Of a stretch of DNA of 44,261 nucleotides, positions 3,466 through 43,381 are shown one piece after another. Position 1 is the stretch's first letter. Every line of letters begins with the position of its first letter. The stretch is from Escherichia phage vB_Ec-G9: the sequence record PQ433351.1; one strand, 5' to 3'. The notes under the pieces are model-generated. The model worked only from the letters and a program-made list of their open reading frames with translations, did not search any database and was not told the DNA's origin. Both the position numbers and the translations under genes were made by a program.

Positions 3466-5998
3466 TTGGAAGAAGGAGGCAGAAGGTCGTATCCTCGTGA
3501 TGGATGCGGAAGCTAAAGGACTCCTTGACGCTATCCGATATGGACACCGTGAAGATGTGCATATCATTTGCTGCATGGATTTGCTTACTACCGAGGAGTT
3601 TCTCTTCTTTGACCCGTATGAGATGCGTGACCCTGAAGCAAGAGAACGCCTGAAGGAATGGGAAGGTCATCAAGATGGAACCTTGGTTGACGGTGTTAAC
3701 TTCCTGAAGCATTGTGAAGCTATTGTGTCACAGAACTTCCTAGGGTATGACGGCCTTCTCTTTGAGAAGGCATTCCCTGATATTTGGAAAGGCTTTAACT
3801 ATACCGAGAAGCGCGGTAAGGGCAGACTCCGTGCTGACCTGTGTCCTATCCGTGTTGTAGATACGCTGGTGATGAGTCGTCTGCTAAACCCAGATAGACG
3901 CCTTCCTCCGCAAGCATATGCCAAAGGCATGGGTAACGTCGCCCCTCACTCAATTGAGGCGCACGGCATCCGTATAGGCCGCTATAAACCAGAGAACAAG
4001 GACTGGTCTAAACTAACTGACCACATGGTTCACCGTGTACGTGAAGACGTGGCAATTGGTCGTGACTTTTTCCTATGGCTTTACAACGGAGAGTGGACGG
4101 AGCACAAACGCCGTGGCGTGAACAAACGTACTGGCCTAGGGATTGAGACAGCCTTCCACATGGAGTCCATTGTGGCGCTGGAGATGAGCCGTCAGGCAGA
4201 GCGTGGATTCCGTCTGGATATTGACAAAGCACTAGCGCGATGCGAAGAACTGGACGCTAAGATTGATGAGACAGTCGCAGCGTTCCGCCCTCACATGCCT
4301 ATGCGTATCAAGTCTAAACCTTTTAAACCGGAAGAAAAGAATGAAGTATGCCAACGCGCAAATGAGTATGGAGCTAGCAACAATATACCTACTGTCCTTG
4401 ACCCCTCACACTTTCTTCATGCCGAGAGACGAGGAGATCGCAAGACAGTATGGAGTGTCACTACTAAGTCTGGTGATTGGTCGGCTAGTGTCAAGAAAGA
4501 CTTTCCTCACCTTAGAGGAAACCGTAATGACACGCCAAGCATCAAGTGGATTGGCGCTTACTCGCCTGTTACTTTCGAAGAGATTCCCTTGGGTAACAGG
4601 GATACAGTTAAGCAAGTGCTCTATGATTATGGATGGAAAGGTGTTGAATTTAACGATACCGAGCAAGCGCATCTCGATGAGCACGGAGTGTTACCCAAAC
4701 CTTGGAGTGGTAAGATAAATGAAAAGTCCCTTACTTTATGGCAAGAAAGAGCCGCACGTGAAGGTAAAACAGTCCCTGATTGGTGCTTGGGTATCGCTGC
4801 ATGGTACATACTCGTATCCCGTCGTGGTCAGATACTCAACCGTGGTGACGTTGAAGCCTTCAACGAGAAGGGAACGTGGCCCTCGCAGGCTGGTGTACGA
4901 AAGTGTCGCGGCCTTGTACCTGTAGCATTCAACAAGGAGCTAGGAATCAATGCGCAGCAATACTACGAGAGGTACGGATGTTGGCCTACGTCTGACAAAG
5001 ATGACGGAGAGTGGCGTGTTCCAGCTGTTGCTATTAGCATTGGCACTTCTACGTTCCGTATGCGTCATCGTAACGTGGTTAATATTCCTGCCCGTGGCTT
5101 GTATCCTTTACGTGATTTATTCATAGCAGGGAAAGGCAAGCTAATCCTTGGTTGTGACGGTGCAGGTCTTGAACTGCGTGTCCTGTCTCACTTCATGAAT
5201 GACCCTGAGTACCAAGAGATTGTACTGCACGGTGATATTCATACGCATAACCAGATGAAGGCTGGTCTTCCTAAGCGTGATATGGCGAAGACGTTTATAT
5301 ACGCCTTCCTCTATGGCTCTGGTATAGCCAACCTTGCAGCAGTATGTGGTGTTACTGAGGAAGAAATGAAGGAAGTTGTGGCAAGATTCGAGATTGAACT
5401 ACCATCTCTTGCACGTCTTCGTGAGAATGTTATCGCACAAGGTAACAAGTTTGGCTACCTGCAAGCACCTGATGGACATTGGGGTCGCATCCGCATGTCT
5501 GGTGGTGAACTTAAAGAGCACACGATGCTTAACGTATTACTCCAGATGACTGGCTCTTTGTGTATGAAATATGCATTAGTCAAGGCATTTGCAGTAATGC
5601 GCAAGGAAGGTGTAGCCTTGGATGCTATGGGAAATCCTTGTGGTGTGGCTAACGTGCATGATGAAATCCAGATGGAAGTTCCTGAAGAGGAGGTCTTGTA
5701 TCTTAACTACGACCTACCTTTCACCTTAGATGGGTTCGAAACAGAGAAGGTTGCCGTGAAAGCAGTGTTCGATGCAGAGGAGAAACGTGTTCATGTGGAT
5801 TCTGAAGGACGTATGTGGTCTGCTGCAAACCTAGTTAGTGTTGATGCTGATGCTGGTGTATTGCATTGCCAGCGCCGTTATCACCGTGCAGGTCATATCA
5901 TTGCCGACGCCATGACTTGGGCAGGGCAGTATCTGAAGATGCGTTGCCCGATGGCAGGCGAATATAAGATTGGCGCAAGTTGGAAGGAAACACACTGA
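3452..5998 (+). CDS. family A DNA polymerase with 3'-5' exonuclease domain (T7 gp5-like)
   Basis: Exo motif ILVMDAEA near N-terminus; pol motifs DGAGLELRV, KTFIYAFLYGSG, VHDEIQ; start placed at ATG 3452 (RBS GAGG) rather than ORF-track 3425. Confidence 0.9.
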   Translation: MKTIDWKKEAEGRILVMDAEAKGLLDAIRYGHREDVHIICCMDLLTTEEFLFFDPYEMRDPEARERLKEWEGHQDGTLVDGVNFLKHCEAIVSQNFLGYDGLLFEKAFPDIWKGFNYTEKRGKGRLRADLCPIRVVDTLVMSRLLNPDRRLPPQAYAKGMGNVAPHSIEAHGIRIGRYKPENKDWSKLTDHMVHRVREDVAIGRDFFLWLYNGEWTEHKRRGVNKRTGLGIETAFHMESIVALEMSRQAERGFRLDIDKALARCEELDAKIDETVAAFRPHMPMRIKSKPFKPEEKNEVCQRANEYGASNNIPTVLDPSHFLHAERRGDRKTVWSVTTKSGDWSASVKKDFPHLRGNRNDTPSIKWIGAYSPVTFEEIPLGNRDTVKQVLYDYGWKGVEFNDTEQAHLDEHGVLPKPWSGKINEKSLTLWQERAAREGKTVPDWCLGIAAWYILVSRRGQILNRGDVEAFNEKGTWPSQAGVRKCRGLVPVAFNKELGINAQQYYERYGCWPTSDKDDGEWRVPAVAISIGTSTFRMRHRNVVNIPARGLYPLRDLFIAGKGKLILGCDGAGLELRVLSHFMNDPEYQEIVLHGDIHTHNQMKAGLPKRDMAKTFIYAFLYGSGIANLAAVCGVTEEEMKEVVARFEIELPSLARLRENVIAQGNKFGYLQAPDGHWGRIRMSGGELKEHTMLNVLLQMTGSLCMKYALVKAFAVMRKEGVALDAMGNPCGVANVHDEIQMEVPEEEVLYLNYDLPFTLDGFETEKVAVKAVFDAEEKRVHVDSEGRMWSAANLVSVDADAGVLHCQRRYHRAGHIIADAMTWAGQYLKMRCPMAGEYKIGASWKETH

Positions 5999-29129: not shown

Positions 29130-29324
29130 ATGATTAACTCCGAACTGGTAGATAGTGGTGTGAAGCTTGCGCCACCTGCACTCGTATCAGGTGGGTACTT
29201 CCTCGGTATCAGTTGGAATAATTGGGTGTTAATAGCAACATTCATTTATACCGTGTTGCAAATTGGGGACTGGTTTTATAATAAGTTCAAGATTTGGAGG
29301 GAGAAGCGTGAGCGTACACAATAA
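29130..29324 (+). CDS. class II holin (T7 gp17.5-like)
   Basis: ELVDSGVKLAPPALVSGGYFLGIS...IYTVLQIG closely parallels T7 holin ELIKAAPIVGTGVADVSARLFFGLS...AYTVVQIG. Confidence 0.8.
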   Translation: MINSELVDSGVKLAPPALVSGGYFLGISWNNWVLIATFIYTVLQIGDWFYNKFKIWREKRERTQ

Positions 29325-29607: not shown

Positions 29608-31505
29608 TGGCTAAGGCAAGAGAATCACAAGCGGAGGCTCTTGCCAGATGGGAGATGCTACAGGAGTTACAGCAGACCTTTCCTTACACAGCGGAAGGTT
29701 TGCTTCTCTTTGCAGATACAGTTATCCATAACTTGATTGCAGGCAACCCTCATCTGATTCGTATGCAGGCTGATATCTTGAAGTTCCTATTCTACGGACA
29801 TAAGTATCGCCTCATCGAAGCGCCTCGTGGTATCGCTAAGACAACACTATCAGCAATCTATACGGTATTCCGTATTATCCATGAACCGCATAAGCGTATC
29901 ATGGTTGTATCCCAAAACGCCAAGCGAGCAGAGGAAATCGCAGGTTGGGTAGTTAAAATCTTCCGTGGCCTAGACTTTCTTGAGTTTATGCTACCAGACA
30001 TCTACGCAGGGGACCGTGCATCCGTTAAGGCGTTTGAGATTCATTACACCCTACGTGGTAGTGATAAGTCTCCTTCTGTATCCTGTTACTCAATCGAAGC
30101 AGGTATGCAGGGTGCTCGTGCTGATATTATTCTAGCGGATGACGTAGAGTCGATGCAGAATGCTCGTACGGCAGCGGGCCGTGCCTTGCTTGAGGAACTG
30201 ACTAAGGAGTTTGAATCTATCAACCAGTTTGGGGATATCATTTACCTTGGTACACCTCAGAACGTAAACTCTATCTACAACAACCTACCTGCTCGTGGTT
30301 ACTCTGTTCGTATCTGGACTGCGCGTTACCCTTCAGTAGAGCAAGAGCAATGTTATGGCGACTTCCTTGCACCTATGATTGTTCAAGATATGAAGGACAA
30401 CCCAGCACTTCGCTCAGGGTACGGGTTGGATGGTAATAGTGGTGCACCTTGTGCCCCTGAAATGTATGATGATGAAGTCCTGATTGAGAAGGAAATCTCT
30501 CAGGGTGCTGCTAAGTTCCAGCTTCAGTTCATGCTTAACACTCGCATGATGGATGCTGACAGATACCCATTACGCCTGAACAATCTAATCTTCACCTCGT
30601 TTGGTACAGAGGAAGTCCCTGTGATGCCTACGTGGAGTAATGATTCCATAAACATCATTGGTGATGCACCTAAGTATGGTAACAAGCCTACGGATTTCAT
30701 GTACAGACCTGTAGCTCGCCCATACGAATGGGGTGCTGTCTCCCGCAAGATTATGTATATTGACCCTGCGGGTGGTGGTAAGAACGGAGATGAGACGGGT
30801 GTAGCCATCGTATTCCTGCACGGCACATTCATTTATGTGTATCAGTGCTTTGGTGTACCTGGTGGATACCGAGAGTCGTCCCTGAATCGCATTGTGCAGG
30901 CCGCAAAGCAGGCGGGTGTTAAAGAGGTATTCATTGAGAAGAACTTTGGTCATGGCGCGTTTGAGGCGGTAATTAAGCCGTACTTTGAACGAGAGTGGCC
31001 TGTAACTCTGGAAGAGGATTACGCCACCGGACAGAAAGAGTTGCGTATCATTGAGACGCTGGAGCCGCTCATGGCAGCCCATAGGCTTATCTTCAATGCA
31101 GAGATGGTGAAGTCAGACTTCGAGTCGGTACAGCACTATCCGCTTGAACTACGCATGTCCTACAGTCTTTTCAATCAAATGTCGAACATAACGATTGAGA
31201 AGAACAGCCTCCGGCACGATGACCGCCTAGACGCCCTGTATGGCGCTATACGGCAATTAACTTCTCAGATAGACTATGACGAGGTTACACGGATTAATCG
31301 CCTCAGAGCGCAGGAGATGCGCGATTACATCCATGCTATGAACACACCTCATCTACGCAGGGCAATGCTATATGGAGATTACGGTACTGAGCGAAGAGTG
31401 ACCAACACTTCCGTAGCGATGCAGCAGCGAGTTTACGGGCAGAACTACCGAAATAAATCGGCAAGCAGAAATACACTTTCTGCAAGGATTTCAAGGACTT
31501 ATTAA
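29607..31505 (+). CDS. terminase large subunit
   Basis: ATPase motif region GHKYRLIEAPRGIAKTT; size about 630 aa; position. Confidence 0.9.
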   Translation: MAKARESQAEALARWEMLQELQQTFPYTAEGLLLFADTVIHNLIAGNPHLIRMQADILKFLFYGHKYRLIEAPRGIAKTTLSAIYTVFRIIHEPHKRIMVVSQNAKRAEEIAGWVVKIFRGLDFLEFMLPDIYAGDRASVKAFEIHYTLRGSDKSPSVSCYSIEAGMQGARADIILADDVESMQNARTAAGRALLEELTKEFESINQFGDIIYLGTPQNVNSIYNNLPARGYSVRIWTARYPSVEQEQCYGDFLAPMIVQDMKDNPALRSGYGLDGNSGAPCAPEMYDDEVLIEKEISQGAAKFQLQFMLNTRMMDADRYPLRLNNLIFTSFGTEEVPVMPTWSNDSINIIGDAPKYGNKPTDFMYRPVARPYEWGAVSRKIMYIDPAGGGKNGDETGVAIVFLHGTFIYVYQCFGVPGGYRESSLNRIVQAAKQAGVKEVFIEKNFGHGAFEAVIKPYFEREWPVTLEEDYATGQKELRIIETLEPLMAAHRLIFNAEMVKSDFESVQHYPLELRMSYSLFNQMSNITIEKNSLRHDDRLDALYGAIRQLTSQIDYDEVTRINRLRAQEMRDYIHAMNTPHLRRAMLYGDYGTERRVTNTSVAMQQRVYGQNYRNKSASRNTLSARISRTY

Positions 31506-31526
31506 TTACTGGACACTATAGAAGGA
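31503..31526 (+). promoter_or_regulatory. phage RNAP promoter
   Basis: TAATTACTGGACACTATAGAAGGAAGG. Confidence 0.8.
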
Positions 31527-31662
31527 AGGCCCAGATAATAAGAGAAAATAATAGGTAATATATAGGTTAACCTAGGTTATATAGGTATGCCTTAGTATGG
31601 GTGTACTCCTGTACACCCTATTCCTTACTACCTTACTATATTTACATAATAGGAGAGAGACA

Positions 31663-31938
31663 ATGGCTAATGATTATAGTAGTCAACCATTAACAGGTAA
31701 GTCTAAGAGAAAGCAGGTACAACCTGTAAGTGAAGAACTAATGCTTCCGGTACTCCCAAAAGAGGCAGCTAGTAAGAAAAGCAATGTTATTAATGATGCC
31801 ACCAAATCAGGTAAACAGAAAGGGGCCATGGTATGTCTTGAAGTGGACGGTGCATTGCAGATTGCTATCGCGGTTGATGGCAAAGAAGATTCAGAGTGGA
31901 AGTTAGTAACAGTGGGTTCCACTGTTACCCCAGTTTAA
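31663..31938 (+). CDS. hypothetical protein, paralogue 1 of tandem pair
   Basis: RBS AGGAGAG; shares SGKQKGAMV...IA(I/V)A...VTP with next gene. Confidence 0.6.
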   Translation: MANDYSSQPLTGKSKRKQVQPVSEELMLPVLPKEAASKKSNVINDATKSGKQKGAMVCLEVDGALQIAIAVDGKEDSEWKLVTVGSTVTPV

Positions 31939-31956
31939 GAGAAGGAGGAAGATTAC

Positions 31957-32247
31957 ATGGCTAAATATGGTACTACAGGTTCTGTTACGGGTCAGGCTTT
32001 TCGAGTGAAAGCAGTACAAACTATTGCAACGGCAATTCCTATGCCTGTTGTTAAGGAAGCAGACCTTAAGAAGAAAGACCACCCTATCAACATCAAACAT
32101 TTATCAGGTAAACAGAAAGGTGCAATGGTTGCTCTTGAGAAAACTGACACAACCATGCATATTGCTGTTGCACGTGGCAGTGAACCAACAGACCCTTGGG
32201 ATGTAACTGGTATGGGAGTGGACGCTGTTACTCCAGCAGGGGAATAA
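31957..32247 (+). CDS. hypothetical protein, paralogue 2 of tandem pair
   Basis: RBS GAAGGAGG; paralogous to 31663..31938. Confidence 0.6.
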   Translation: MAKYGTTGSVTGQAFRVKAVQTIATAIPMPVVKEADLKKKDHPINIKHLSGKQKGAMVALEKTDTTMHIAVARGSEPTDPWDVTGMGVDAVTPAGE

Positions 32248-32249
32248 TA

Positions 32250-32594
32250 ATGCTTAATAAATACTTCAAGCGTAAAGAGTTCGCTTGTCGTTGTGGGTGC
32301 GGTACATCCACTGTTGATGCTGAATTACTACAGGTAGTCGCAGATGTGCGTGAGCACTTTGGTTCTCCTGTAGTTATCACTTCGGGGCATCGCTGTGCTA
32401 AGCACAATGCTAATGTAGGAGGAGCTAAGAACTCCATGCATCTTACTGGTAAGGCTGCTGACATTAAGGTACGAGGCATCTTACCTTCTGATGTACATAA
32501 GTATCTTACTGATAAGTACCAAGGCAAATATGGGATTGGTAAGTATAACTCCTTTACTCATATTGATGTACGTGACGGGTGTGCACGATGGTAG
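32250..32594 (+). CDS. endolysin, zinc peptidase M15-type (L-alanyl-D-glutamate or D-Ala-D-Ala peptidase fold)
   Basis: SGHRCAKHNANVGGAKNSMHLTGKAADI: H-x-H / D zinc-binding pattern of VanY/M15 peptidases. Confidence 0.75.
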   Translation: MLNKYFKRKEFACRCGCGTSTVDAELLQVVADVREHFGSPVVITSGHRCAKHNANVGGAKNSMHLTGKAADIKVRGILPSDVHKYLTDKYQGKYGIGKYNSFTHIDVRDGCARW

Positions 32595-32702
32595 GTTGTG
32601 TTGCATGGTGTGAACGCATGGTTGCTAAGGCTTCAGAGGAAGGCAACTATGAAGATTGGCAGAACTACTCAACTTTATTAGCTCAATGGAAAGGGAGATG
32701 CA

Positions 32703-32852
32703 ATGAAAAAGCTGTTCAAATCTAAGAAGGTTGTAGGTGCACTAGTTGCATTGGCAATTGCTCTTGTTTCTGTAGGTCTTGGTGTAGACCTTGGCTCTGG
32801 CACGGAATCCTCTGTGACAGATGTGGTATGCCAAGTGATCACCTGTGAATAA
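32703..32852 (+). CDS. small membrane protein (49 aa), lysis-cassette associated
   Basis: RBS GGAG; N-terminal TM VVGALVALAIALVSVGLGV. Confidence 0.4.
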   Translation: MKKLFKSKKVVGALVALAIALVSVGLGVDLGSGTESSVTDVVCQVITCE

Positions 32853-33063
32853 GTTTCTAGAAGTTCTGGCAGGTCTTATTGGCCTGCTTGTCTCTGCTAA
32901 GAAGAAACAAGAAGAGAAGGAGGCACAAAGTGAAGCGAATCATGTTAGTGACAACCCTTCTGATTGGTTCGCTGACCACTTCCGGGTGTCAGCAGGCGTT
33001 ACCAGAGAAAGCAATGGTGAAACCTCTGAGGCCGACGCTGACGGAAGTTTACGAGGTAGATGA
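32845..33063 (+). CDS. candidate i-spanin (Rz-like), GTG start
   Basis: N-terminal TM FLEVLAGLIGLLVSA then charged periplasmic part; contains embedded +1 frame lipoprotein ORF; weak start signals. Confidence 0.35.
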   Translation: MNKFLEVLAGLIGLLVSAKKKQEEKEAQSEANHVSDNPSDWFADHFRVSAGVTRESNGETSEADADGSLRGR

Positions 33064-33139
33064 TAAGGTCTGCTTTAGTAAGCCTGACGCTACAAAATTA
33101 GGTTTGTATATTCTTTCGCTAGAACGCGGATATAATTAA
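32942..33139 (+). CDS. candidate o-spanin (Rz1-like outer membrane lipoprotein)
   Basis: Lipobox-like LTTSGC after hydrophobic signal; starts inside Rz-like ORF in another frame and extends past it. Confidence 0.45.
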   Translation: MLVTTLLIGSLTTSGCQQALPEKAMVKPLRPTLTEVYEVDDKVCFSKPDATKLGLYILSLERGYN

Positions 33140-33167
33140 TACATAGCTTTATGTATCAGTGTCTTAC

Positions 33168-33192
33168 GATTTACTGGACACTATAGAAGAGG
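33168..33192 (+). promoter_or_regulatory. phage RNAP promoter upstream of tailspike genes
   Basis: GATTTACTGGACACTATAGAAGAGG. Confidence 0.8.
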
Positions 33193-33270
33193 TAAGATAG
33201 CGCCGTTCTTTTGAGCGGCCTATTACTAGCCAATCTTCATAGGGAGGGTTGGAAAGTAATAGGAGATAGC

Positions 33271-35169
33271 ATGGCTAAATTAACCAAACCTAATACTGAA
33301 GGAATCTTGCATAAAGGACAATCGTTGTATGAGTACCTTGATGCGAGAGTTTTAACATCAAAGCCGTTTGGTGCTGCAGGTGACGCCACTACTGATGATA
33401 CGGAGGTTATAGTTGCTTCATTAAACTCTCAGAAAGCTGTCACAGTCTCAGATGGTGTATTCTCTAGCTCTGGTATTAATAGTAATTACTGTAACTTAGA
33501 CGGTAGGGGTAGTGGCGTGCTAAGTCACCGTTCCAGTACAGGTAACTACTTAGTATTTAACAATCTACGTGCAGGTCGCTTAAGTAATATTACGGTAGAA
33601 AGTAATAAGGCGACTGATACAACTCAGGGACAGCAGGTATCTCTTGCTGGTGGAAGTGATGTTACTGTAAGTGACGTTAACTTCTCAAACGTTAAAGGTA
33701 CTGGTTTCAGTTTAATCGCATACCCTAATGATGCGCCACCTGATGGACTTATGATTAAAGGCATTCGAGGTAGCTATTCCGGCTATGCTACTAATAAGGC
33801 AGCCGGGTGTGTACTTGCTGACTCCTCAGTTAACTCCCTCATAGATAACGTCATTGCTAAGAACTACCCTCAGTTCGGAGCAGTAGAGCTGAAAGGTACA
33901 GCCAGTTATAACATAGTCAGCAATGTTATAGGGGCAGACTGCCAGCATGTAACTTACAACGGTACAGTAGGGTCAATAGCTCCCTCTAACAACCTTATCA
34001 ATGGGGTAGTGGCTAATAATCCTAAATATGCAGCGGTTGTTGCAGGCAAAGGTAGTACCAACTTAATCTCAGATGTGCTTGTAGATTTCTCAATCTCTGA
34101 TGCTAGTCAGGCTCACGGTGTTACAGTAGAAGGCTCTGATAACGTAATAAGCAATGTGCTTATGTCAGGATGTGATGGTACTAACTCTTCAGGACAAGCT
34201 CAAACTGCTACAATTGCGCGCTTTATAGGTACAGCTAATAACAACTATGCGTCTGTATTTCCTAGCTACAGTGCTACAGGTGTTATTACTTTCGAATCAG
34301 GTTCTACCCGTAACTTCGTAGAGGTAAAGCATCCGGGAAGGAGAAACGACCTTCTCAGTACTGCTAGTGCTATTGACGGTGCAGCTACTATTGACGGCAC
34401 TAGTAATAGTAACGTAGTGCACGCACCTGCCTTAGGGCAGTACATAGGTAGTATGTCAGGTAGGTTCGAATGGCGGATTAAGTCCATGTCACTCCCTTCA
34501 GGCGTTCTTACTTCTGCTGATAAGTACAGAATGCTTGGGGATGGTGCTGTGTCATTAGCTTTAGGTGGTGGCACTTCTTCTCAAGTTCGCCTATTTACTT
34601 CTGATGGTACTTCTCGGACAGTGTCCCTCACCAACGGTAACGTGCGTCTTTCTACCAGTAGCACAGGCTTTTTGCAGTTAGGTGCTGATGCAATGACCCC
34701 AGATAGTACTGGTACATACGCATTAGGTTCCGCCAGTCGAGCATGGTCTGGCGGTTTTACTCAAGCAGCATTCACTGTTACCTCAGATGCTCGGTGTAAA
34801 ACAGAACCTCTTACTATCTCAGATGCCTTACTGGATGCTTGGTCTGAAGTTGACTTTGTGCAGTTTCAGTATTTGGATCGTGTTGAGGAGAAGGGTGCAG
34901 ACTCAGCTAGATGGCACTTTGGCATCATAGCTCAGCGAGCTAAGGAGGCTTTCGAACGACACGGTATAGATGCACATCGCTATGGCTTCTTGTGCTTCGA
35001 CAGTTGGGATGATGTATACGAGGAAGATGCCAATGGCTCTCGTAAACTGATTACACCAGCAGGTTCCCGCTACGGTATTCGTTACGAGGAAGTACTGATA
35101 TTAGAGGCTGCGTTGATGCGGCGGACTATTAAGCGTATGCAGGAGGCACTAGCTTCCCTGCCTAAGTAA
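33271..35169 (+). CDS. tailspike 1 with beta-helix body and C-terminal intramolecular chaperone (peptidase S74-like) domain
   Basis: RBS AGGAG before ATG 33271; repetitive Ser/Thr/Asn/Gly-rich beta-helix-like body; C-terminal ~110 aa block (DARCKTEP...WHFGIIAQRAKEAF...GIRYEEVLILEAA) resembles the auto-cleaving chaperone domain of endosialidase/K5-lyase tailspikes, from memory. Confidence 0.7.
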   Translation: MAKLTKPNTEGILHKGQSLYEYLDARVLTSKPFGAAGDATTDDTEVIVASLNSQKAVTVSDGVFSSSGINSNYCNLDGRGSGVLSHRSSTGNYLVFNNLRAGRLSNITVESNKATDTTQGQQVSLAGGSDVTVSDVNFSNVKGTGFSLIAYPNDAPPDGLMIKGIRGSYSGYATNKAAGCVLADSSVNSLIDNVIAKNYPQFGAVELKGTASYNIVSNVIGADCQHVTYNGTVGSIAPSNNLINGVVANNPKYAAVVAGKGSTNLISDVLVDFSISDASQAHGVTVEGSDNVISNVLMSGCDGTNSSGQAQTATIARFIGTANNNYASVFPSYSATGVITFESGSTRNFVEVKHPGRRNDLLSTASAIDGAATIDGTSNSNVVHAPALGQYIGSMSGRFEWRIKSMSLPSGVLTSADKYRMLGDGAVSLALGGGTSSQVRLFTSDGTSRTVSLTNGNVRLSTSSTGFLQLGADAMTPDSTGTYALGSASRAWSGGFTQAAFTVTSDARCKTEPLTISDALLDAWSEVDFVQFQYLDRVEEKGADSARWHFGIIAQRAKEAFERHGIDAHRYGFLCFDSWDDVYEEDANGSRKLITPAGSRYGIRYEEVLILEAALMRRTIKRMQEALASLPK

Positions 35170-39253: not shown

Positions 39254-39610
39254 ATGGCTATGTCTAATATGACTTACTCTCAGGTTTACAACACCGCTCA
39301 CGCTGCATTAGTTGAACGTATCTGGGATGATGCTATTGATTGTATCGATAACGCACATGATGCAATCCATGAGGTGGCGGATAGTGCTGTACCAATCTAT
39401 TATGCTGACATCTTCTCAGTGATGGCCAGTGAAGGCATCGACCACTTCTTCGAGGATTCTGGCTTAATGCCAGACACTAAGGATGTGACGGTCGTACTAC
39501 AAGCCCGTATTTATGAACAACTCACCATTGATTTATGGGAACGTGTTCAAGATATGATTGATGCGTACATCGACTCAGCCGAAGATTTAGAAGAAGAAGA
39601 GGAAGAATAA
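39254..39610 (+). CDS. ocr: Ocr-like DNA-mimic anti-restriction protein (T7 gene 0.3 homologue)
   Basis: MAMSNMTY... [18 protein letters not shown]...[13 protein letters not shown]...[15 protein letters not shown] closely matches T7 Ocr as recalled; acidic EEEEEE C-terminus; RBS GAGGA. Confidence 0.85.
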
Positions 39611-39612
39611 AG

Positions 39613-39726
39613 ATGGAAAAGCAATATAACTTTATCTTTTCTGATGGTGTAACCTTGAAATGCTCCTTACGATTCGCCCAGATTCGCGAGGAAGTGCTAG
39701 GTACTACATATAAACTATTTATCTGA
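39613..39726 (+). CDS. early hypothetical small protein (37 aa)
   Basis: ATG 3 nt after ocr stop; below ORF-track cutoff. Confidence 0.3.
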   Translation: MEKQYNFIFSDGVTLKCSLRFAQIREEVLGTTYKLFI

Positions 39727-39740
39727 CACTATAAGAGAGG
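39716..39740 (+). promoter_or_regulatory. phage-promoter-like variant (ACTATAAGAG)
   Basis: TATTTATCTGACACTATAAGAGAGG: upstream half matches, +1 region differs. Confidence 0.35.
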
Positions 39741-39805
39741 ATTTAACAGGGCGTTACTTGTTAGCGCCCGATTAAGTTTATCTCAATAAACCAAATAGGT
39801 GACTT

Positions 39806-40690
39806 ATGACTACTGAAAACACCCTCCTGTCTGTTCGTGAAGCTGCAACCGCTGAGATCAAGCAACACTTAGACAATATCGGCACTTCTTACATCAAAGT
39901 TGGCGCTTGTCTTAATGAGTTACGCGGTGACTTTGAAGGTCAAAAAGACTTTTTGGCTTATGTAGAATCAGAATTTGGAATCAAGAAAGCACAATGTTAC
40001 AAGCTGATGAGTGTAGCCCGTGTCTTTGAAGGCGATGATCGCTTTAAAGGCGTGGCGATGCGTGTAATGCTGGCACTTGTTCCTTTCGCTGATGAAAATA
40101 TCATCATGGAGAAAGCCGCAGAACTTGCCGCAGCGGGCAAGCTGGACACTAACGCCGTGAACGCCCTGATTGAGCCTAAGAAAGAGCCAAAGTCTGAGAC
40201 GGTACAATCCAAGGCTGAGCCTGTAAAACCGAAGGAGAACGCGACTGCGGCCGCAGAATTACAGGAAACGCAAGCGCCGCAGGAAGTGCCGCCAGCAAGT
40301 GAGTCGGATGACGACAAATCAGCACCGTGGGAAGAGGAAAGCAAGCCGGAAGCGCCAAAGGCCGCGCCACTGGACAACACGGCTAACACTGAAAACGCCG
40401 CTATGGCTGGCCTACTGGCACAAATTAAGGCACTGACTGAGCAATTACAGGCAGCTAACGACCGCATCGCCGCCCTAACCAGTGCACGTGAAAGCAAGAA
40501 GGCAGCCGCGCCTATGCTTCCCCAATTCAAATCTAAATGTCTCTATGCTCGCTTGGGTTTAAGCGCTGAGGAGGCAACGAAGAAAACAGCAGTTAACAAG
40601 GCACGCCGCGAACTGGTTAAGCTAGGCTATGGTGAAGGCCATGAAGCATGGGCCTTAATCTCTGAGGCAGTAGAAGAATTAACTAAGTAA
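39806..40690 (+). CDS. early protein with low-complexity Pro/Glu/Lys/Ala-rich central linker (294 aa)
   Basis: ORF immediately upstream of RNAP gene (position of T7 gene 0.7); noticeably GC-richer codon usage; no kinase motifs seen. Confidence 0.6.
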   Translation: MTTENTLLSVREAATAEIKQHLDNIGTSYIKVGACLNELRGDFEGQKDFLAYVESEFGIKKAQCYKLMSVARVFEGDDRFKGVAMRVMLALVPFADENIIMEKAAELAAAGKLDTNAVNALIEPKKEPKSETVQSKAEPVKPKENATAAAELQETQAPQEVPPASESDDDKSAPWEEESKPEAPKAAPLDNTANTENAAMAGLLAQIKALTEQLQAANDRIAALTSARESKKAAAPMLPQFKSKCLYARLGLSAEEATKKTAVNKARRELVKLGYGEGHEAWALISEAVEELTK

Positions 40691-40753: not shown

Positions 40754-43381
40754 ATGCAAGACTTACACGCTATTCAACTTCAACTTGAAGAAGAAATGTT
40801 TAACGGCGGTATCCGTCGCTTTGAAGCGGACCAACAGCGCCAGATTGCATCCGGTAATGAATCAGACACGGCATGGAATCGCCGCTTATTGTCCGAGTTA
40901 ATTGCGCCAATGGCTGAAGGTATTCAGGCATACAAGGAAGAGTATGAAGGTAAAAGAGGCCGTGCACCGCGTGCATTAGCTTTCATTAACTGCGTAGAAA
41001 ATGAAGTGGCAGCGTATATCACGATGAAAATCGTTATGGATATGCTGAACACGGATGTAACCTTGCAGGCTATAGCCATGAATGTAGCTGACCGCATTGA
41101 GGACCAAGTACGTTTTAGCAAGCTGGAAGGTCACGCCGCCAAATACTTTGAGAAAGTTAAGAAGTCACTTAAGGCAAGTAAGACTAAATCATATCGCCAT
41201 GCGCACAACGTAGCGGTCGTGGCTGAGAAGTCAGTAGCTGACCGTGACGCTGATTTCTCTCGCTGGGAGGCGTGGCCTAAAGATACCTTGCTACAAATCG
41301 GTATGACCTTGCTAGAAATACTGGAAAATAGTGTATTCTTCAATGGTCAGCCTGTCTTTCTTCGCACCTTGCGCACTAATGGTGGCAAGCATGGCGTTTA
41401 CTACTTACAGACTAGCGAACACGTAGGTGAATGGATAACTGCATTTAAAGAGCACGTAGCTCAGCTGAGTCCAGCCTATGCACCTTGCGTTATTCCTCCG
41501 CGTCCGTGGGTTTCTCCGTTTAATGGTGGCTTTCACACCGAGAAGGTGGCGAGTCGTATTCGTCTGGTTAAAGGAAACCGCGAGCACGTCCGCAAGCTGA
41601 CCAAAAAGCAAATGCCAGCGGTTTACAAGGCTGTTAACGCTTTGCAGGCGACTAAGTGGCAGGTTAATAAAGAGGTTTTGCAGGTAGTAGAGGACGTTAT
41701 CCGTCTCGACCTTGGTTATGGTGTGCCTTCCTTTAAACCACTCATCGACCGTGAGAACAAGCCAGCTAATCCAGTGCCGTTAGAGTTCCAGCACCTGCGA
41801 GGCCGTGAACTTAAAGAGATGCTAACGCCAGAACAGTGGCAAGCTTTTATAAACTGGAAAGGAGAATGTACCAAGCTGTATACCGCTGAAACTAAGCGCG
41901 GAAGCAAGTCGGCGGCGACCGTTCGCATGGTAGGACAAGCGCGCAAGTACAGCCAGTTCGACGCGATTTATTTCGTGTATGCACTGGATAGCCGTTCACG
42001 CGTTTATGCGCAATCTAGCACGCTCTCTCCGCAATCAAACGACTTAGGCAAGGCATTGCTCCGTTTTACCGAAGGGCAGCGTCTTGATAGCGCTGAGGCG
42101 CTTAAGTGGTTTTTGGTGAACGGGGCGAATAACTGGGGTTGGGATAAGAAAACTTTTGACGTGCGCACCGCTAACGTGCTGGATAGCGAATTTCAAGACA
42201 TGTGCCGCGACATTGCAGCCGACCCGCTGACCTTCACTCAATGGGTAAATGCTGATTCCCCTTACGGCTTCCTTGCATGGTGCTTTGAATATGCGCGTTA
42301 TCTGGATGCACTGGATGAAGGCACGCAAGACCAATTCATGACGCACCTACCCGTCCATCAAGACGGTAGTTGCTCTGGTATCCAGCACTATAGCGCGATG
42401 TTACGCGATGAAGTAGGTGCGAAAGCAGTAAACCTTAAGCCTTCTGACTCCCCTCAAGATATTTATGGCGCGGTTGCGCAGGTTGTTATCCAGAAGAATT
42501 ACGCCTACATGAATGCAGATGATGCAGAGACTTTCACATCTGGAAGCGTCACACTTACAGGTGCAGAACTGCGTAGCATGGCTAGTGCGTGGGATATGAT
42601 AGGAATCACTCGCGGCCTGACCAAAAAGCCCGTAATGACACTACCTTATGGCAGCACACGTCTAACCTGCCGTGAATCAGTGATTGATTATATCGTTGAT
42701 TTGGAAGAAAAAGAGGCCCAACGAGCTATTGCCGAAGGGCGGACGGCGAATCCCGTGCACCCTTTTGATAATGACCGCAAAGACTACCTTACACCTGGTG
42801 CAGCCTACAACTATATGACGGCTTTAATTTGGCCTTCTATCTCTGAGGTTGTTAAAGCTCCTATAGTGGCGATGAAGATGATTCGCCAGCTTGCACGTTT
42901 CGCAGCTAAAAGGAATGAAGGGTTAGAATACACCTTGCCAACTGGCTTCATCTTGCAACAAAAGATAATGGCTACCGATATGCTCCGTGTATCCACTTGC
43001 TTGATGGGTGAAATCAAGATGAGTCTACAGATTGAAACTGATGTAGTGGATGAAACGGCAATGATGGGCGCTGCCGCTCCTAACTTTGTTCACGGGCACG
43101 ATGCTAGTCACCTTATATTAACGGTATGTGACCTTGTTGATAAAGGGATTACATCTATCGCAGTAATTCATGATTCTTTTGGCACTCATGCAGGCCGTAC
43201 AGCCGATCTACGCAACAGCTTAAGGGCAGAAATGGTGAAGATGTATCAAGGCCGTAATGCACTGCAAAGCCTGCTAGATGAGCACGAAGAACGCTGGTTA
43301 GTTGATACAGGAATCCAAGTACCAGAGCAAGGAGAGTTTGACCTTAACGAAATCTTAGTATCTGACTATTGCTTCGCATAA
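40754..43381 (+). CDS. single-subunit DNA-dependent RNA polymerase (T7/SP6 type)
   Basis: [39 protein letters not shown] and C-terminal SDYCFA match T7 RNAP catalytic and C-terminal motifs; 875 aa. Confidence 0.95.

What the first reader, a model, noticed from the sequence alone, without database searches (positions are those of the whole stretch)
32250..33139. Lysis cassette separated from the holin, with overlapping spanin-like ORFs
The T7-type holin lies at 29130, upstream of the terminase genes, while the M15 peptidase endolysin is at 32250, followed by a small TM protein (32703), a TM protein with a GTG start (32845) and a lipoprotein-like ORF in another frame (32942, lipobox LTTSGC). 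The arrangement resembles overlapped Rz/Rz1 spanins, but the start signals are weak.
Basis: inference. Interest (0 to 1): 0.35.

Follow-up and report, generated by a model that had tools for sequence, protein, structure and literature searches.

The report
Phage lysis cassette with overlapping spanins
This is the ordinary end-of-infection lysis gene block of a K1-5-like coliphage, but the small GTG-started gene overlapping the outer-membrane lipoprotein gene is real, conserved, mostly unannotated, and the best candidate for the missing inner-membrane spanin partner.

Summary
The window is a Vectrevirus (K1-5-like, SP6 supergroup) genome.

Two corrections. The lipoprotein starts at GTG 32930 behind a perfect AAGGAGG, not at ATG 32942.

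The 72-aa ORF is a real gene. It is open with a conserved start that overlaps the upstream stop in 25 of 25 distinct relatives, and it shows third-position-biased substitutions where it overlaps nothing. It belongs to PHROG 9219 ("unknown function"). In all 46 loci examined, including unrelated metagenomic phages, it overlaps the same o-spanin family (PHROG 8971).

Public annotation is inconsistent. The 2018 spanin census called the 49-aa protein the i-spanin in K1-5, K1E and SP6 (flagged "too small?") but called the 72-aa homolog the i-spanin in UAB_Phi78.

My best reading is an overlapped two-component spanin (72-aa ORF plus lipoprotein), with the 49-aa protein being a holin-family relic. 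Caveats: the ORF's membrane helix is weak, its flanking charges point the wrong way, and it has no cysteines. This is a new member of a known kind, of modest interest.

The parts
29130..29324 (+). T7-type (gp17.5-like) holin, 64 aa, located upstream of the terminase genes
   Evidence: Pfam PF10746 at 1.5e-27; phrog_920 'holin' at 2.5e-28
31506..31526 (+). SP6/K1-5-type phage RNA-polymerase promoter that opens the transcription unit containing the lysis genes
   Evidence: TTACTGGACACTATAGAAGGA. It is one of 9 matches in the window, against 0 expected in shuffles
32250..32594 (+). Endolysin, 114 aa, a Zn peptidase of family M15_3 with no signal sequence
   Evidence: PF08291 at 5.9e-33; phrog_894 at 1.1e-44; weak match to PDB 1LBU, a D-Ala-D-Ala carboxypeptidase
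32588..32725 (+). Conserved 45-aa gene of unknown function. Its ATG overlaps the endolysin stop (ATGGTAG).
   Evidence: phrog_1312 at 1.3e-17. It is annotated in AAPEc6 and UAB_Phi78 and is also present in Gajwadongvirus, Edwardsiella and Aeromonas phages
32703..32852 (+). 49-aa single-pass membrane protein (K1-5 gp44). It is predicted N-in/C-out, with a 21-aa tail ending in C-x4-C. It is a holin-family relative. The spanin census and CPT labelled it 'i-spanin'.
   Evidence: phrog_4712 'holin' at 3e-27. Related 2-TMD proteins hit phrog_34682, phrog_297 and phrog_4712 holin families. Codon-position substitutions are 17/4/48. It is retained in PP1 and K44PH129C1, which lack the next two genes
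32845..33063 (+). 72-aa GTG-started gene (ORF72), the candidate i-spanin. Parts: N-terminal hydrophobic helix (residues 4-18), charged helix (19-35), conserved motif DNPxDWFxDHFRV (36-48), and a variable acidic tail.
   Evidence: phrog_9219 at 4.4e-32. Conserved GTG/ATG start that overlaps the upstream stop. Coding signature 26/16/44 and pN/pS of 0.25-0.6. It equals SP6 gp48 and the UAB_Phi78 'OIS'. AF2 gives helices 3-35 and 38-46
32917..32923 (+). AAGGAGG Shine-Dalgarno for the lipoprotein gene, lying inside ORF72
   Evidence: Read directly from the sequence. The same Shine-Dalgarno is listed for K1-5 and K1E in the spanin census
32930..33139 (+). o-spanin lipoprotein precursor, 69 aa (K1-5 gp45). 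The signal peptide is MKRIMLVTTLLIGSLTTSG|C. The mature protein is 50 aa with a second conserved Cys and a conserved C-terminal LGLYILSLERGY.
   Evidence: phrog_8971 'Rz-like spanin' at 2.3e-38. Lipobox pattern match. It is one of only two hits of a whole-window lipoprotein scan that carry a Shine-Dalgarno (the other is the 38-aa ORF at 5998). Codon signature is 8/1/20 in the non-overlapped part
33171..33191 (+). Next phage promoter, for the tail-spike gene. It closes the lysis transcription unit.
   Evidence: Exact match to TTACTGGACACTATAGAAGAG

Best explanation
The block 32250-33139 is the late lysis cassette of a K1-5-like podophage. It is transcribed from the phage promoter at 31506 and translated as a chain of coupled genes.

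Proposed mechanism (inferred from family knowledge):
1. The T7-type holin (29130) permeabilises the inner membrane.
2. This lets the signal-less M15 endolysin reach the murein.
3. Once the murein is cut, a two-component spanin disrupts the outer membrane.

The o-spanin is the 69-aa lipoprotein starting at GTG 32930. Its partner is most likely the 72-aa protein started at GTG 32845 (ORF72). ORF72 would be anchored in the inner membrane by its N-terminal helix, and its conserved DNPxDWFxDHF motif would contact the conserved C-terminus of the lipoprotein (VCFxxPDAxxLGxYILxLERGY).

The two genes share DNA in the classic overlapped Rz/Rz1 manner. The lipoprotein gene begins 85 nt inside ORF72, in the +1 frame, and runs 76 nt past it. 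The 49-aa protein just upstream is a truncated holin-family membrane protein, not the i-spanin.

What is shown: gene reality, starts, conservation, overlap geometry, family memberships and co-inheritance.

What is inferred: the membrane topology of ORF72, its contact with the lipoprotein, and the outer-membrane disruption function.
For: 1. ORF72 is a real gene under purifying selection.
- It is open in 25 of 25 distinct sequences spanning Vectrevirus, Zindervirus, Acadevirus and Klebsiella phages.
- Its start is invariant and overlaps the upstream stop. Gajwadongvirus and Erwinia phages have ATG in TAATG or ATGA overlaps.
- Substitutions are 26/16/44 by codon position and pN/pS is 0.25-0.6 where it overlaps nothing.

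2. In the stretch shared with the lipoprotein signal peptide, changes follow ORF72's third codon position (4/4/9). So ORF72's motif is the more constrained reading there. Downstream of the lipobox the constraint passes to the lipoprotein frame.

3. The two genes are co-inherited.
- tblastn finds ORF72 in 155 phage records and the lipoprotein in 156, with near-identical taxon counts.
- All 46 loci that carry the ORF72 motif have the overlapped lipobox ORF.
- An exhaustive HMM search finds 48 clusters, listed at 49-132 aa and mostly 61-83 aa; the two longest look like chimeric calls and the 95-aa one is a deletion fusion. Each of the seven such clusters whose metagenomic contig was examined has the same overlap at the end of a lysis cassette, whereas the upstream membrane protein differs between them.

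4. Two lineages (Pectobacterium PP1, Klebsiella K44PH129C1) lost ORF72 and the lipoprotein together but kept the 49-aa gene.

5. The 49-aa protein and its 2-TMD relatives hit holin PHROGs. This gives the canonical order of endolysin, holin-like gene, then i/o-spanin.

6. The spanin census itself called the UAB_Phi78 homolog of ORF72 an overlapped i-spanin. It flagged the K1-5 49-aa candidate as 'Too small?' and the pair as 'Too short'.

7. Periplasmic length: ORF72 (about 54 aa) plus the mature lipoprotein (50 aa) gives about 104 residues. The 49-aa protein plus the lipoprotein gives 71. The catalogued range is 62-300.
Against: - ORF72's hydrophobic helix is marginal. Its Hessa-scale 15-mer sum is +0.9, with a Glu inside the helix, against -1.8 for the 49-aa protein.
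- Across 42 family representatives, only 11 have a clearly hydrophobic 15-mer. About 20 look amphipathic, although some of these are truncated gene calls.
- Family-wide, K/R residues average 0.24 before the helix and 3.14 in the ten residues after it. The positive-inside heuristic therefore favours N-out/C-in, the opposite of an i-spanin.
- AF2 shows one helix-turn-helix and a disordered tail at mean pLDDT 61, with no long coiled coil.
- ORF72 has no Cys, and only 2 of 42 family representatives have any.
- Because the two genes share DNA, their co-inheritance is partly automatic.
- No Pfam, NCBIfam or PDB relative exists.
- No experiment on this family was found in the literature searches.
Confidence: 0.55

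Rival explanations
1. A 'separated' two-component spanin, as in the 2018 spanin census and in the CPT and GenBank SP6 annotations. In this model the 49-aa protein (32703-32852) is the i-spanin and the lipoprotein is the o-spanin. ORF72 is a conserved accessory protein that sits N-out/C-in, or lies on the cytoplasmic face of the membrane, for example as a holin or antiholin-type regulator of lysis timing.
For: - The 49-aa protein has an excellent TMD with a K-rich N-terminus, so N-in/C-out is predicted. Its periplasmic tail has two Cys, as many spanins do.
- It is called i-spanin in LL11, Premi and AY288927.2.
- ORF72's flanking charges (0.24 before the helix against 3.14 after) fit N-out/C-in. 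Its small size and highly charged C-terminal part are also hallmarks of holins.
- The 49-aa gene is translationally coupled to ORF72.
Against: - The periplasmic tail is only about 21 aa, which the census authors doubted ('Too small?', 'Too short').
- The 49-aa gene, with its C-x4-C tail, persists in K44PH129C1, which has no lipoprotein. In PP1 it persists without the cysteines.
- In unrelated phages the same o-spanin family, with the same conserved C-terminus, sits behind a different 2-TMD, Cys-free holin-like protein whose periplasmic loop is about 10 aa. ORF72 is always present in those loci.
- The 49-aa family is related to holin PHROGs.
Confidence: 0.22
2. A three-piece envelope-disruption system. 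The 49-aa membrane protein, ORF72 and the lipoprotein all belong to one complex. For example, the 49-aa protein provides the firm inner-membrane anchor and the disulfide-forming cysteines, while ORF72 provides the lipoprotein-binding motif.
For: - The three genes form a tightly coupled translational chain in every Autographiviridae relative examined.
- ORF72's own anchor is weak and it lacks Cys, whereas the 49-aa protein has both a strong TMD and a C-x4-C tail.
- A natural variant, seen in two Tara samples, fuses TM1 of the upstream membrane protein in frame to the ORF72 domain.
Against: - The fused variant is a singleton. It is a 113-nt deletion in an otherwise 100% identical locus whose normal form, seen on many contigs, has two separate genes. 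It may well be defective.
- The upstream membrane protein is not of one conserved type across the ORF72 family. One of them shows no similarity at all (z = 0.2).
- The 49-aa gene survives without the other two genes.
Confidence: 0.15
3. ORF72 is not a gene. It is an accidental open frame created by the flanking genes and the overlapped lipoprotein gene, and the 77-nt stretch between the 49-aa gene and the lipoprotein gene is simply intergenic.
For: - It has a GTG start and no Shine-Dalgarno.
- It is not annotated in K1-5, LL11 or AAPEc6.
- Its C-terminal tail varies in length (61-73 aa) and in sequence.
Against: - The frame stays open, with the start conserved, in 25 of 25 distinct relatives down to about 42% amino-acid identity.
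- Substitutions are third-position-biased in the 'intergenic' stretch, 26/16/44 and 10/3/24.
- The other two frames are closed.
- The protein-level family extends to 48 clusters in metagenomes, with a motif containing invariant residues Q28, P38, H45 and F46.
Confidence: 0.02

Closest known systems
Overlapped two-component spanins (for example P2 LysB/LysC; the lambda Rz/Rz1 and T7 gp18.5/18.7 pairs are the embedded version)
   Same: A small outer-membrane lipoprotein gene starts inside the preceding gene in the +1 frame and extends beyond it. The pair sits at the end of the lysis cassette, next to the endolysin. Both reading frames are under selection.
   Different: - The candidate i-spanin is only 72 aa, against about 150 aa for Rz and 149 aa for K1F gp18.5.
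- Its hydrophobic helix is marginal, its flanking charge bias is reversed, it has no predicted coiled coil and no Cys.
- No sequence similarity to Rz, gp18.5 or LysB was detected. The original SP6 and K1-5 papers reported no gp18.5 homolog (as cited).
UAB_Phi78 'overlapped' spanin pair in the spanin census (Kongari et al. 2018, PMC6139136)
   Same: It is directly homologous. The UAB_Phi78 69-aa 'OIS' is the ORF72 ortholog (MNKLLKVLAGLLGLLVAYKREQ...DNPADWFADHFRV). Its 'OOS' groups with the K1-5, K1E and SP6 o-spanins.
   Different: The census treated it as a singleton i-spanin family. It did not connect it with K1-5, K1E and SP6, where the same ORF exists but a different gene was chosen.
K1-5 / K1E / SP6 'separated' spanin call (gp44 as i-spanin, gp45 as o-spanin)
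   Same: The same locus and the same o-spanin. The window's 49-aa protein is 98% identical to K1-5 gp44.
   Different: That call ignores the conserved ORF in the 77-nt 'gap'. Its authors flagged gp44 as 'Too small?' and the pair as 'Too short'. My comparative data favour ORF72 as the partner.
Class II / SPP1-type small holins (PHROGs 34682, 297, 4712)
   Same: The 49-aa protein is homologous to the N-terminal half of 64-65-aa two-TMD holin-like proteins that occupy the same position in other cassettes.
   Different: It is truncated to a single TMD with a C-x4-C tail, and the phage also carries a T7-type holin. No functional data exist.
Unimolecular spanin (T1 gp11) and the spanin-less 'disruptin' route (phiKT gp28). 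Both comparisons are from my own knowledge.
   Same: Both are alternative ways to breach the outer membrane with very small proteins.
   Different: The lipoprotein here has no C-terminal TMD, since LGLYILSLERGYN is too short and too polar for one. ORF72 is net acidic (9 K/R against 13 D/E), not a cationic peptide.

Membership tests
o-spanin (Rz1-like outer-membrane lipoprotein) | N-terminal lipoprotein signal peptide with a lipobox and an invariant Cys | tested here: met
   MKRIMLVTTLLIGSLTTSG|C. There are K/R residues in the n-region, and the pattern {DERK}6-[LIVMFWSTAG]2-[LIVMFYSTAGCQ]-[AGS]-C is matched with Cys at residue 20. The Cys is invariant in 20 diverse homologs.
o-spanin (Rz1-like outer-membrane lipoprotein) | Small mature protein encoded next to, or overlapping, its i-spanin gene in a lysis cassette | tested here: met
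   The mature protein is 50 aa. The gene lies about 340 nt downstream of the endolysin stop and overlaps ORF72 by 134 nt. It matches phrog_8971 'Rz-like spanin' at 2.3e-38.
o-spanin (Rz1-like outer-membrane lipoprotein) | Actual lipid modification, sorting to the outer membrane, and a requirement for lysis | not testable with these tools
   This needs globomycin or palmitate labelling and genetics.
i-spanin (Rz-like), applied to ORF72 (32845-33063) | N-terminal transmembrane domain with type II (N-in/C-out) topology | tested here: inconclusive
   - The hydrophobic 15-mer FLEVLAGLIGLLVSA scores +0.9 on the Hessa scale, against -1.8 for the 49-aa protein.
- The census accepted a TMD in the UAB_Phi78 ortholog.
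- Family-wide K/R counts are 0.24 before the helix and 3.14 after it, and about half of the family has amphipathic helices. This argues against type II topology.
- Some catalogued i-spanins (the K1G type) also lack N-terminal positive charges.
i-spanin (Rz-like), applied to ORF72 (32845-33063) | Predominantly helical or coiled-coil periplasmic domain long enough, together with the o-spanin, to cross the periplasm | tested here: inconclusive
   AF2 gives helices 3-35 and 38-46 and then disorder, at pLDDT 61. The combined periplasmic length of about 104 aa lies inside the catalogued range of 62-300. More than 120 catalogued i-spanins also lack coiled-coil predictions.
i-spanin (Rz-like), applied to ORF72 (32845-33063) | Gene contains or overlaps the start of the o-spanin gene in another frame, and the two are inherited together | tested here: met
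   The lipoprotein gene starts at ORF72 nucleotide 86, in the +1 frame. The overlap is present in 46 of 46 loci. ORF72 is found in 155 phage records and the lipoprotein in 156. Two lineages lost both together.
i-spanin (Rz-like), applied to ORF72 (32845-33063) | Physical complex with the o-spanin, and a requirement for outer-membrane disruption | not testable with these tools
i-spanin, applied to the 49-aa protein (32703-32852) | Periplasmic domain able to reach and bind the o-spanin, and co-occurrence with it | tested here: not met
   - The periplasmic tail is only about 21 aa, flagged 'Too small?' by the census.
- The gene is retained in K44PH129C1 and PP1, which lack the o-spanin.
- Other phages with the same o-spanin family have a different, Cys-free 2-TMD protein in this position.
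T7-type holin (Pfam PF10746) | Profile match above the curated threshold, small size, and one hydrophobic segment followed by a charged C-terminus | tested here: met
   95.5 bits against a 25.4-bit cut-off over residues 4-59. The C-terminus is KFKIWREKRERTQ.
Peptidase M15_3 endolysin | Full-length profile match above the threshold, and position in a lysis cassette | tested here: met
   113.7 bits against a 23.2-bit cut-off, covering profile positions 1-108 of 108; phrog_894 'endolysin'. Enzymatic specificity was not tested.

The most novel reading that the evidence does not exclude
The PHROG 9219 family (ORF72) may not be a classical type II i-spanin at all. It is a protein of about 70 aa whose N-terminal helix is often amphipathic and is followed, not preceded, by a cluster of positive charges.

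It could sit N-out/C-in, or lie on the cytoplasmic face of the inner membrane. Alternatively it could reach the periplasm only through holin lesions. It might also act together with the holin-family 49-aa protein and the lipoprotein as a three-piece system.

Any of these would be a third spanin architecture, beside the two-component and unimolecular types. It would be widespread in SP6-like coliphages, Klebsiella, Proteus, Salmonella and Pectobacterium phages, and marine phages.
Probability: 0.2. Interest if true: 0.65.

Novelty: new member of a known kind. Interest (0 to 1): 0.35.

Why it matters
K1-5, K1E and SP6-type phages are model systems and therapy candidates, yet their outer-membrane lysis step has never been settled. 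The original genome papers found no Rz homolog. The spanin census picked a doubtful 49-aa protein. GenBank SP6 now labels the wrong frame 'o-spanin'.

Showing that a conserved, mostly unannotated 72-aa gene overlaps the o-spanin gene in about 155 phage genomes and in 48 metagenomic clusters does three things:
- It gives a concrete and cheaply testable candidate for the missing partner.
- It would correct many annotations.
- It would assign a function to PHROG 9219.

If the unusual helix and charge features mean a non-canonical topology, the finding would widen the known repertoire of spanin mechanisms. Otherwise this is a routine lysis cassette.

Tried and rejected
1. Rosetta-stone argument. 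P0078 (95 aa) looked like a natural fusion of a TM49-like TMD to the ORF72 domain. A follow-up search and a DNA alignment showed it is a singleton. It is a 113-nt deletion in a locus that is otherwise 100% identical to the common two-gene form. It is also compatible with either topology, so I demoted it to weak evidence.

2. Phylogenetic profile of the 49-aa protein by tblastn. It found only 91 records, because the query is short and low in complexity, so the count cannot be compared with the 155 and 156 records of the other two genes.

3. Programmed frameshift joining the 49-aa gene to ORF72. I rejected this. ORF72's frame is closed 1-2 codons upstream in all but the Klebsiella K13/H01-type sequences (26 codons open there). 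The start codon is conserved as GTG or ATG in typical stop-start overlaps, and there is no slippery site in ATCACCTGTGAATAA.

4. Pseudo-multimer AF2 of ORF72 plus a linker plus the mature lipoprotein on a paired alignment.

5. Pfam, NCBIfam and PDB sequence searches of the 49-aa protein, ORF72 and the lipoprotein gave no informative hits.

6. The word-indexed protein search with ORF72 returned only close relatives with no functional names.

7. A terminator and sigma-70 promoter scan of 31400-33400 found nothing above shuffled expectation. The hairpin after the lipoprotein stop is not significant, with z = -1.4.

8. A search for another spanin pair in the genomes that lack ORF72 and the lipoprotein. 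K44PH129C1 has none. PP1 has only an unannotated 38-aa lipoprotein upstream of its endolysin.

9. Literature searches found no experimental work on these three genes. The KBNP1315 lysis study concerns a distant relative with a different endolysin.
Full report
**Identity of the window**

The 1-kb region around the finding is 97.9% identical to Escherichia phage vB-Eco-KMB47 and to several Vectrevirus isolates. It is 93.5% identical to phage K1-5. The window is therefore a K1-5-like member of the SP6 supergroup (Autographiviridae, Molineuxvirinae, Vectrevirus). Nine copies of the SP6/K1-5-type promoter TTACTGGACACTATAGAAGAG occur in the window, against none expected. Two of them, at 31506 and 33171, bracket the lysis block.

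**Checking the observation**

- The ORF at 29130-29324 is a T7-family holin (PF10746, 1.5e-27; phrog_920).
- 32250-32594 is a full-length Peptidase_M15_3 endolysin (5.9e-33; phrog_894 at 1.1e-44). It has a weak match to the D-Ala-D-Ala carboxypeptidase 1LBU.
- 32703-32852 encodes a 49-aa protein with a K-rich N-terminus, a strong 19-residue hydrophobic segment and a GGGAG Shine-Dalgarno.
- 32845-33063 is a 72-aa GTG ORF, which I call ORF72.
- A lipobox ORF ends at 33139.

Three corrections are needed.
- The lipoprotein starts at GTG 32930, six bases after a perfect AAGGAGG (32917-32923), which gives a normal MKR n-region. The spanin census uses the same start.
- ORF72's GTG lacks a Shine-Dalgarno, but it overlaps the stop of the 49-aa gene (GTGAATAA). 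This is a coupling layout, not a weak signal.
- A conserved 45-aa gene at 32588-32725 was overlooked. Its ATG overlaps the endolysin stop, and it matches phrog_1312 at 1.3e-17.

**Is ORF72 a gene?**

Public records disagree.
- K1-5, LL11 and AAPEc6 do not annotate it.
- RefSeq SP6 annotates it as gp48.
- GenBank AY288927.2 labels a truncated version of this frame 'o-spanin', although it has no lipobox.

I extracted the locus from 29 relatives, giving 25 distinct sequences: Vectrevirus, Zindervirus including SP6 and UAB_Phi78, Proteus Acadevirus, and Klebsiella phages.
- The frame is open in all of them, and the GTG is invariant. In all but the Klebsiella type, the frame is closed one or two codons upstream.
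- In Gajwadongvirus (ECBP5, PP99, MR4), and in Edwardsiella, Aeromonas and Erwinia phages, the homolog starts with ATG in TAATG or ATGA overlaps.
- In the 25 codons that overlap no other gene, minimum substitutions by codon position are 26/16/44. That is the 77-nt 'gap' of the published 'separated spanin' model.
- Pairwise pN/pS there is 0.25-0.6, and the two other frames carry stops in 17 of 25 and 24 of 25 sequences.
- In a 15-genome subset the counts are 10/3/24 for ORF72 alone. They are 17/4/48 for the 49-aa gene and 8/1/20 for the non-overlapped part of the lipoprotein gene.

By my arithmetic the departure from uniformity for ORF72 has chi-square of about 14-18 with 2 degrees of freedom. 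The counts are not fully independent.

ORF72 matches phrog_9219 ('unknown function') end to end at 4.4e-32. It is a real gene under purifying selection.

**How the two overlapping frames share the DNA**

- In the stretch that encodes both ORF72 residues 29-48 and the lipoprotein signal peptide, changes fall 4/4/9 in ORF72's frame. They fall on ORF72's wobble position, which is the lipoprotein's second codon position.
- So the ORF72 motif DNPxDWFxDHFRV is held fixed while the signal peptide drifts among hydrophobic residues.
- After the lipobox the pattern reverses (11/17/23 in the lipoprotein frame), and both products are loosely constrained there.
- ORF72's tail also varies in length, from 61 to 73 aa.
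- The functional parts are therefore ORF72 residues 1-48, and the lipoprotein's lipobox plus its C-terminal roughly 30 residues.
- In 20 diverse pairs the invariant or near-invariant residues are Q28, P38, W41, F42, H45 and F46 in ORF72. In the lipoprotein they are the lipid Cys, K-P, a second Cys, and D..A..LG.YI..LER.

**Distribution**

- tblastn finds ORF72 in 155 phage records and the lipoprotein in 156, with near-identical taxon counts.
- An exhaustive profile search of 1.84 billion representatives finds 48 clusters, listed at 49-132 aa and mostly 61-83 aa. The two longest (103 and 132 aa) look like chimeric calls and the 95-aa one is a deletion fusion. None is a long Rz-like protein.
- I looked at the metagenomic contig of seven of these clusters. 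Each shows the same overlap with a phrog_8971-type lipoprotein at the end of a lysis cassette.
- The flanking genes differ between contexts: a Phage_holin_3_3 plus DUF5675 cassette, a Peptidase_C92 cassette, and marine M15 cassettes.
- In total, 46 of 46 loci that carry the ORF72 motif have the overlapped lipobox ORF.
- Pectobacterium phage PP1 and Klebsiella phage K44PH129C1 have lost ORF72 and the lipoprotein together. Both keep the 49-aa gene directly before the tail-spike gene.
- A genome-wide lipobox scan recovers 32930 in the window as a positive control. It finds no alternative o-spanin in K44PH129C1, and only a tiny unannotated lipoprotein upstream of the endolysin in PP1.

**What the 49-aa protein is**

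- It matches phrog_4712 'holin'.
- In non-Autographiviridae contexts its place is taken by 64-65-aa proteins with two TMDs. These hit several holin PHROGs, including 4712, and weakly hit Pfam Holin_SPP1.
- The 49-aa protein aligns with the N-terminal half of those proteins (z = 5.5-7.6 against shuffles).
- The cassette therefore reads endolysin, (ORF45), holin-family protein, then an overlapped pair. That is the canonical order if the overlapped pair is the spanin.

**What is already published**

- The original SP6 and K1-5 analyses reported no homolog of T7 gp18.5 (as cited).
- The 2018 spanin census (PMC6139136) lists K1-5, K1E and SP6 as 'separated', with the 49-aa gp44 as i-spanin and gp45 as o-spanin. 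[quoted passage not shown]
- The same census lists UAB_Phi78 as 'overlapped', with a 69-aa i-spanin. The coordinates and sequence show that this is the ORF72 ortholog.
- It notes that the o-spanin family has 'members from different architectures'.
However, the two published calls are mutually inconsistent. My comparative data favour the overlapped reading for all of these phages.

**Caveats**

- ORF72's hydrophobic helix (FLEVLAGLIGLLVSA) is marginal, and it contains a Glu.
- Among 42 family representatives, only 11 have a clearly hydrophobic 15-mer. About 20 look amphipathic, although some of these are truncated gene calls.
- Positive charges average 0.24 before the helix and 3.14 in the ten residues after it, and only 2 of 42 contain any Cys. 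By the positive-inside heuristic this favours N-out/C-in, which would put the conserved motif in the cytoplasm.
- Against that, some catalogued i-spanins (the K1G type) also lack N-terminal positive charges.
- AF2 on a shallow alignment gives helices 3-35 and 38-46 and a disordered tail, at pLDDT 61.
- A seemingly informative fusion protein turned out to be a singleton 113-nt deletion variant. It is also compatible with either topology.
- Because the genes share DNA, part of their co-inheritance is automatic.
- I found no experiments on this family.

**Verdict**

- The lipoprotein is an o-spanin with high confidence.
- ORF72 is a genuine, under-annotated gene and the best candidate for its partner (about 0.55).
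- The 49-aa protein is better explained as a holin-family relic than as the i-spanin.
- The rival models remain open: the 'separated' spanin with ORF72 as a cytoplasmic-side regulator (about 0.22), and a three-piece system (about 0.15).
- Simple genetics in the non-overlapped 75 nt of ORF72 would separate them.

Overall this is a new member of a known kind, in a well-known phage group. Its interest is modest, and lies mainly in resolving an inconsistent annotation and giving PHROG 9219 a testable function.

Noticed in passing
window 31663-31938 and 31957-32247: Two paralogous genes of about 91-96 aa lie between the large terminase gene and the endolysin, and share a ...SGKQKGAMV.LE...IAVA...W motif. 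RefSeq relatives name them 'acetyl-CoA acetyltransferase', but Pfam finds nothing significant. The name looks like an unsupported, propagated annotation.
   Followed up: partly
window 32588-32725: A conserved 45-aa Cys- and Trp-containing gene (phrog_1312, unknown function) has an ATG that overlaps the endolysin stop. It keeps this position even in Gajwadongvirus, Edwardsiella and Aeromonas phages whose endolysin is a transglycosylase. So it travels with the 49-aa / ORF72 / lipoprotein module rather than with the endolysin.
   Followed up: partly
window 5998 (+ strand, 38-aa ORF): A small early-region ORF, MDRLDIVYLFFTFFLTLLMLACYGS..., has a Shine-Dalgarno and a lipobox-like LMLAC. It is the only other hit of the lipoprotein scan that has a Shine-Dalgarno.
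   Followed up: no
L056 (GenBank AY288927.2, SP6) 39607-39804: The CDS labelled '48: o-spanin' is in the ORF72 frame, starting at an internal GTG, and has no lipobox. The true lipoprotein frame (39671-39880) is not annotated in that record. This is a public-record mislabel.
   Followed up: yes
L046 (Pectobacterium phage PP1, NC_019542) record 41333-41449: An unannotated 38-aa lipoprotein ORF, MRKIILALALCFSLSGC..., with a Shine-Dalgarno lies immediately upstream of the endolysin. This phage lacks ORF72 and the usual o-spanin. Its role is unknown; it could be a short o-spanin or a superinfection-exclusion lipoprotein.
   Followed up: no
P0049 and P0050: Two database proteins of 103-132 aa end in an exact copy of SP6 ORF72 residues 32-72, preceded by unrelated sequence. 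They look like chimeric ORFs from constructs that carry the SP6-promoter fragment, which lies just downstream of this gene. This is unverified.
   Followed up: no
L061 vs L067 (Tara Oceans contigs): A 113-nt deletion, in an otherwise 100% identical marine phage locus, fuses TM1 of the 64-aa holin-like protein in frame to the ORF72-like domain. It was seen in two samples. It is a natural 'fusion' whose viability is unknown.
   Followed up: yes
Spanin census tables: Vibrio phages VP4, VP3, ICP3, N4(Vibrio): These are listed with 'separated' i-spanins of about 47 aa (21 periplasmic residues) and o-spanins of about 65 aa. Those are almost the same sizes as the K1-5 call, so they may hide the same unrecognised overlapped ORF.
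   Followed up: no
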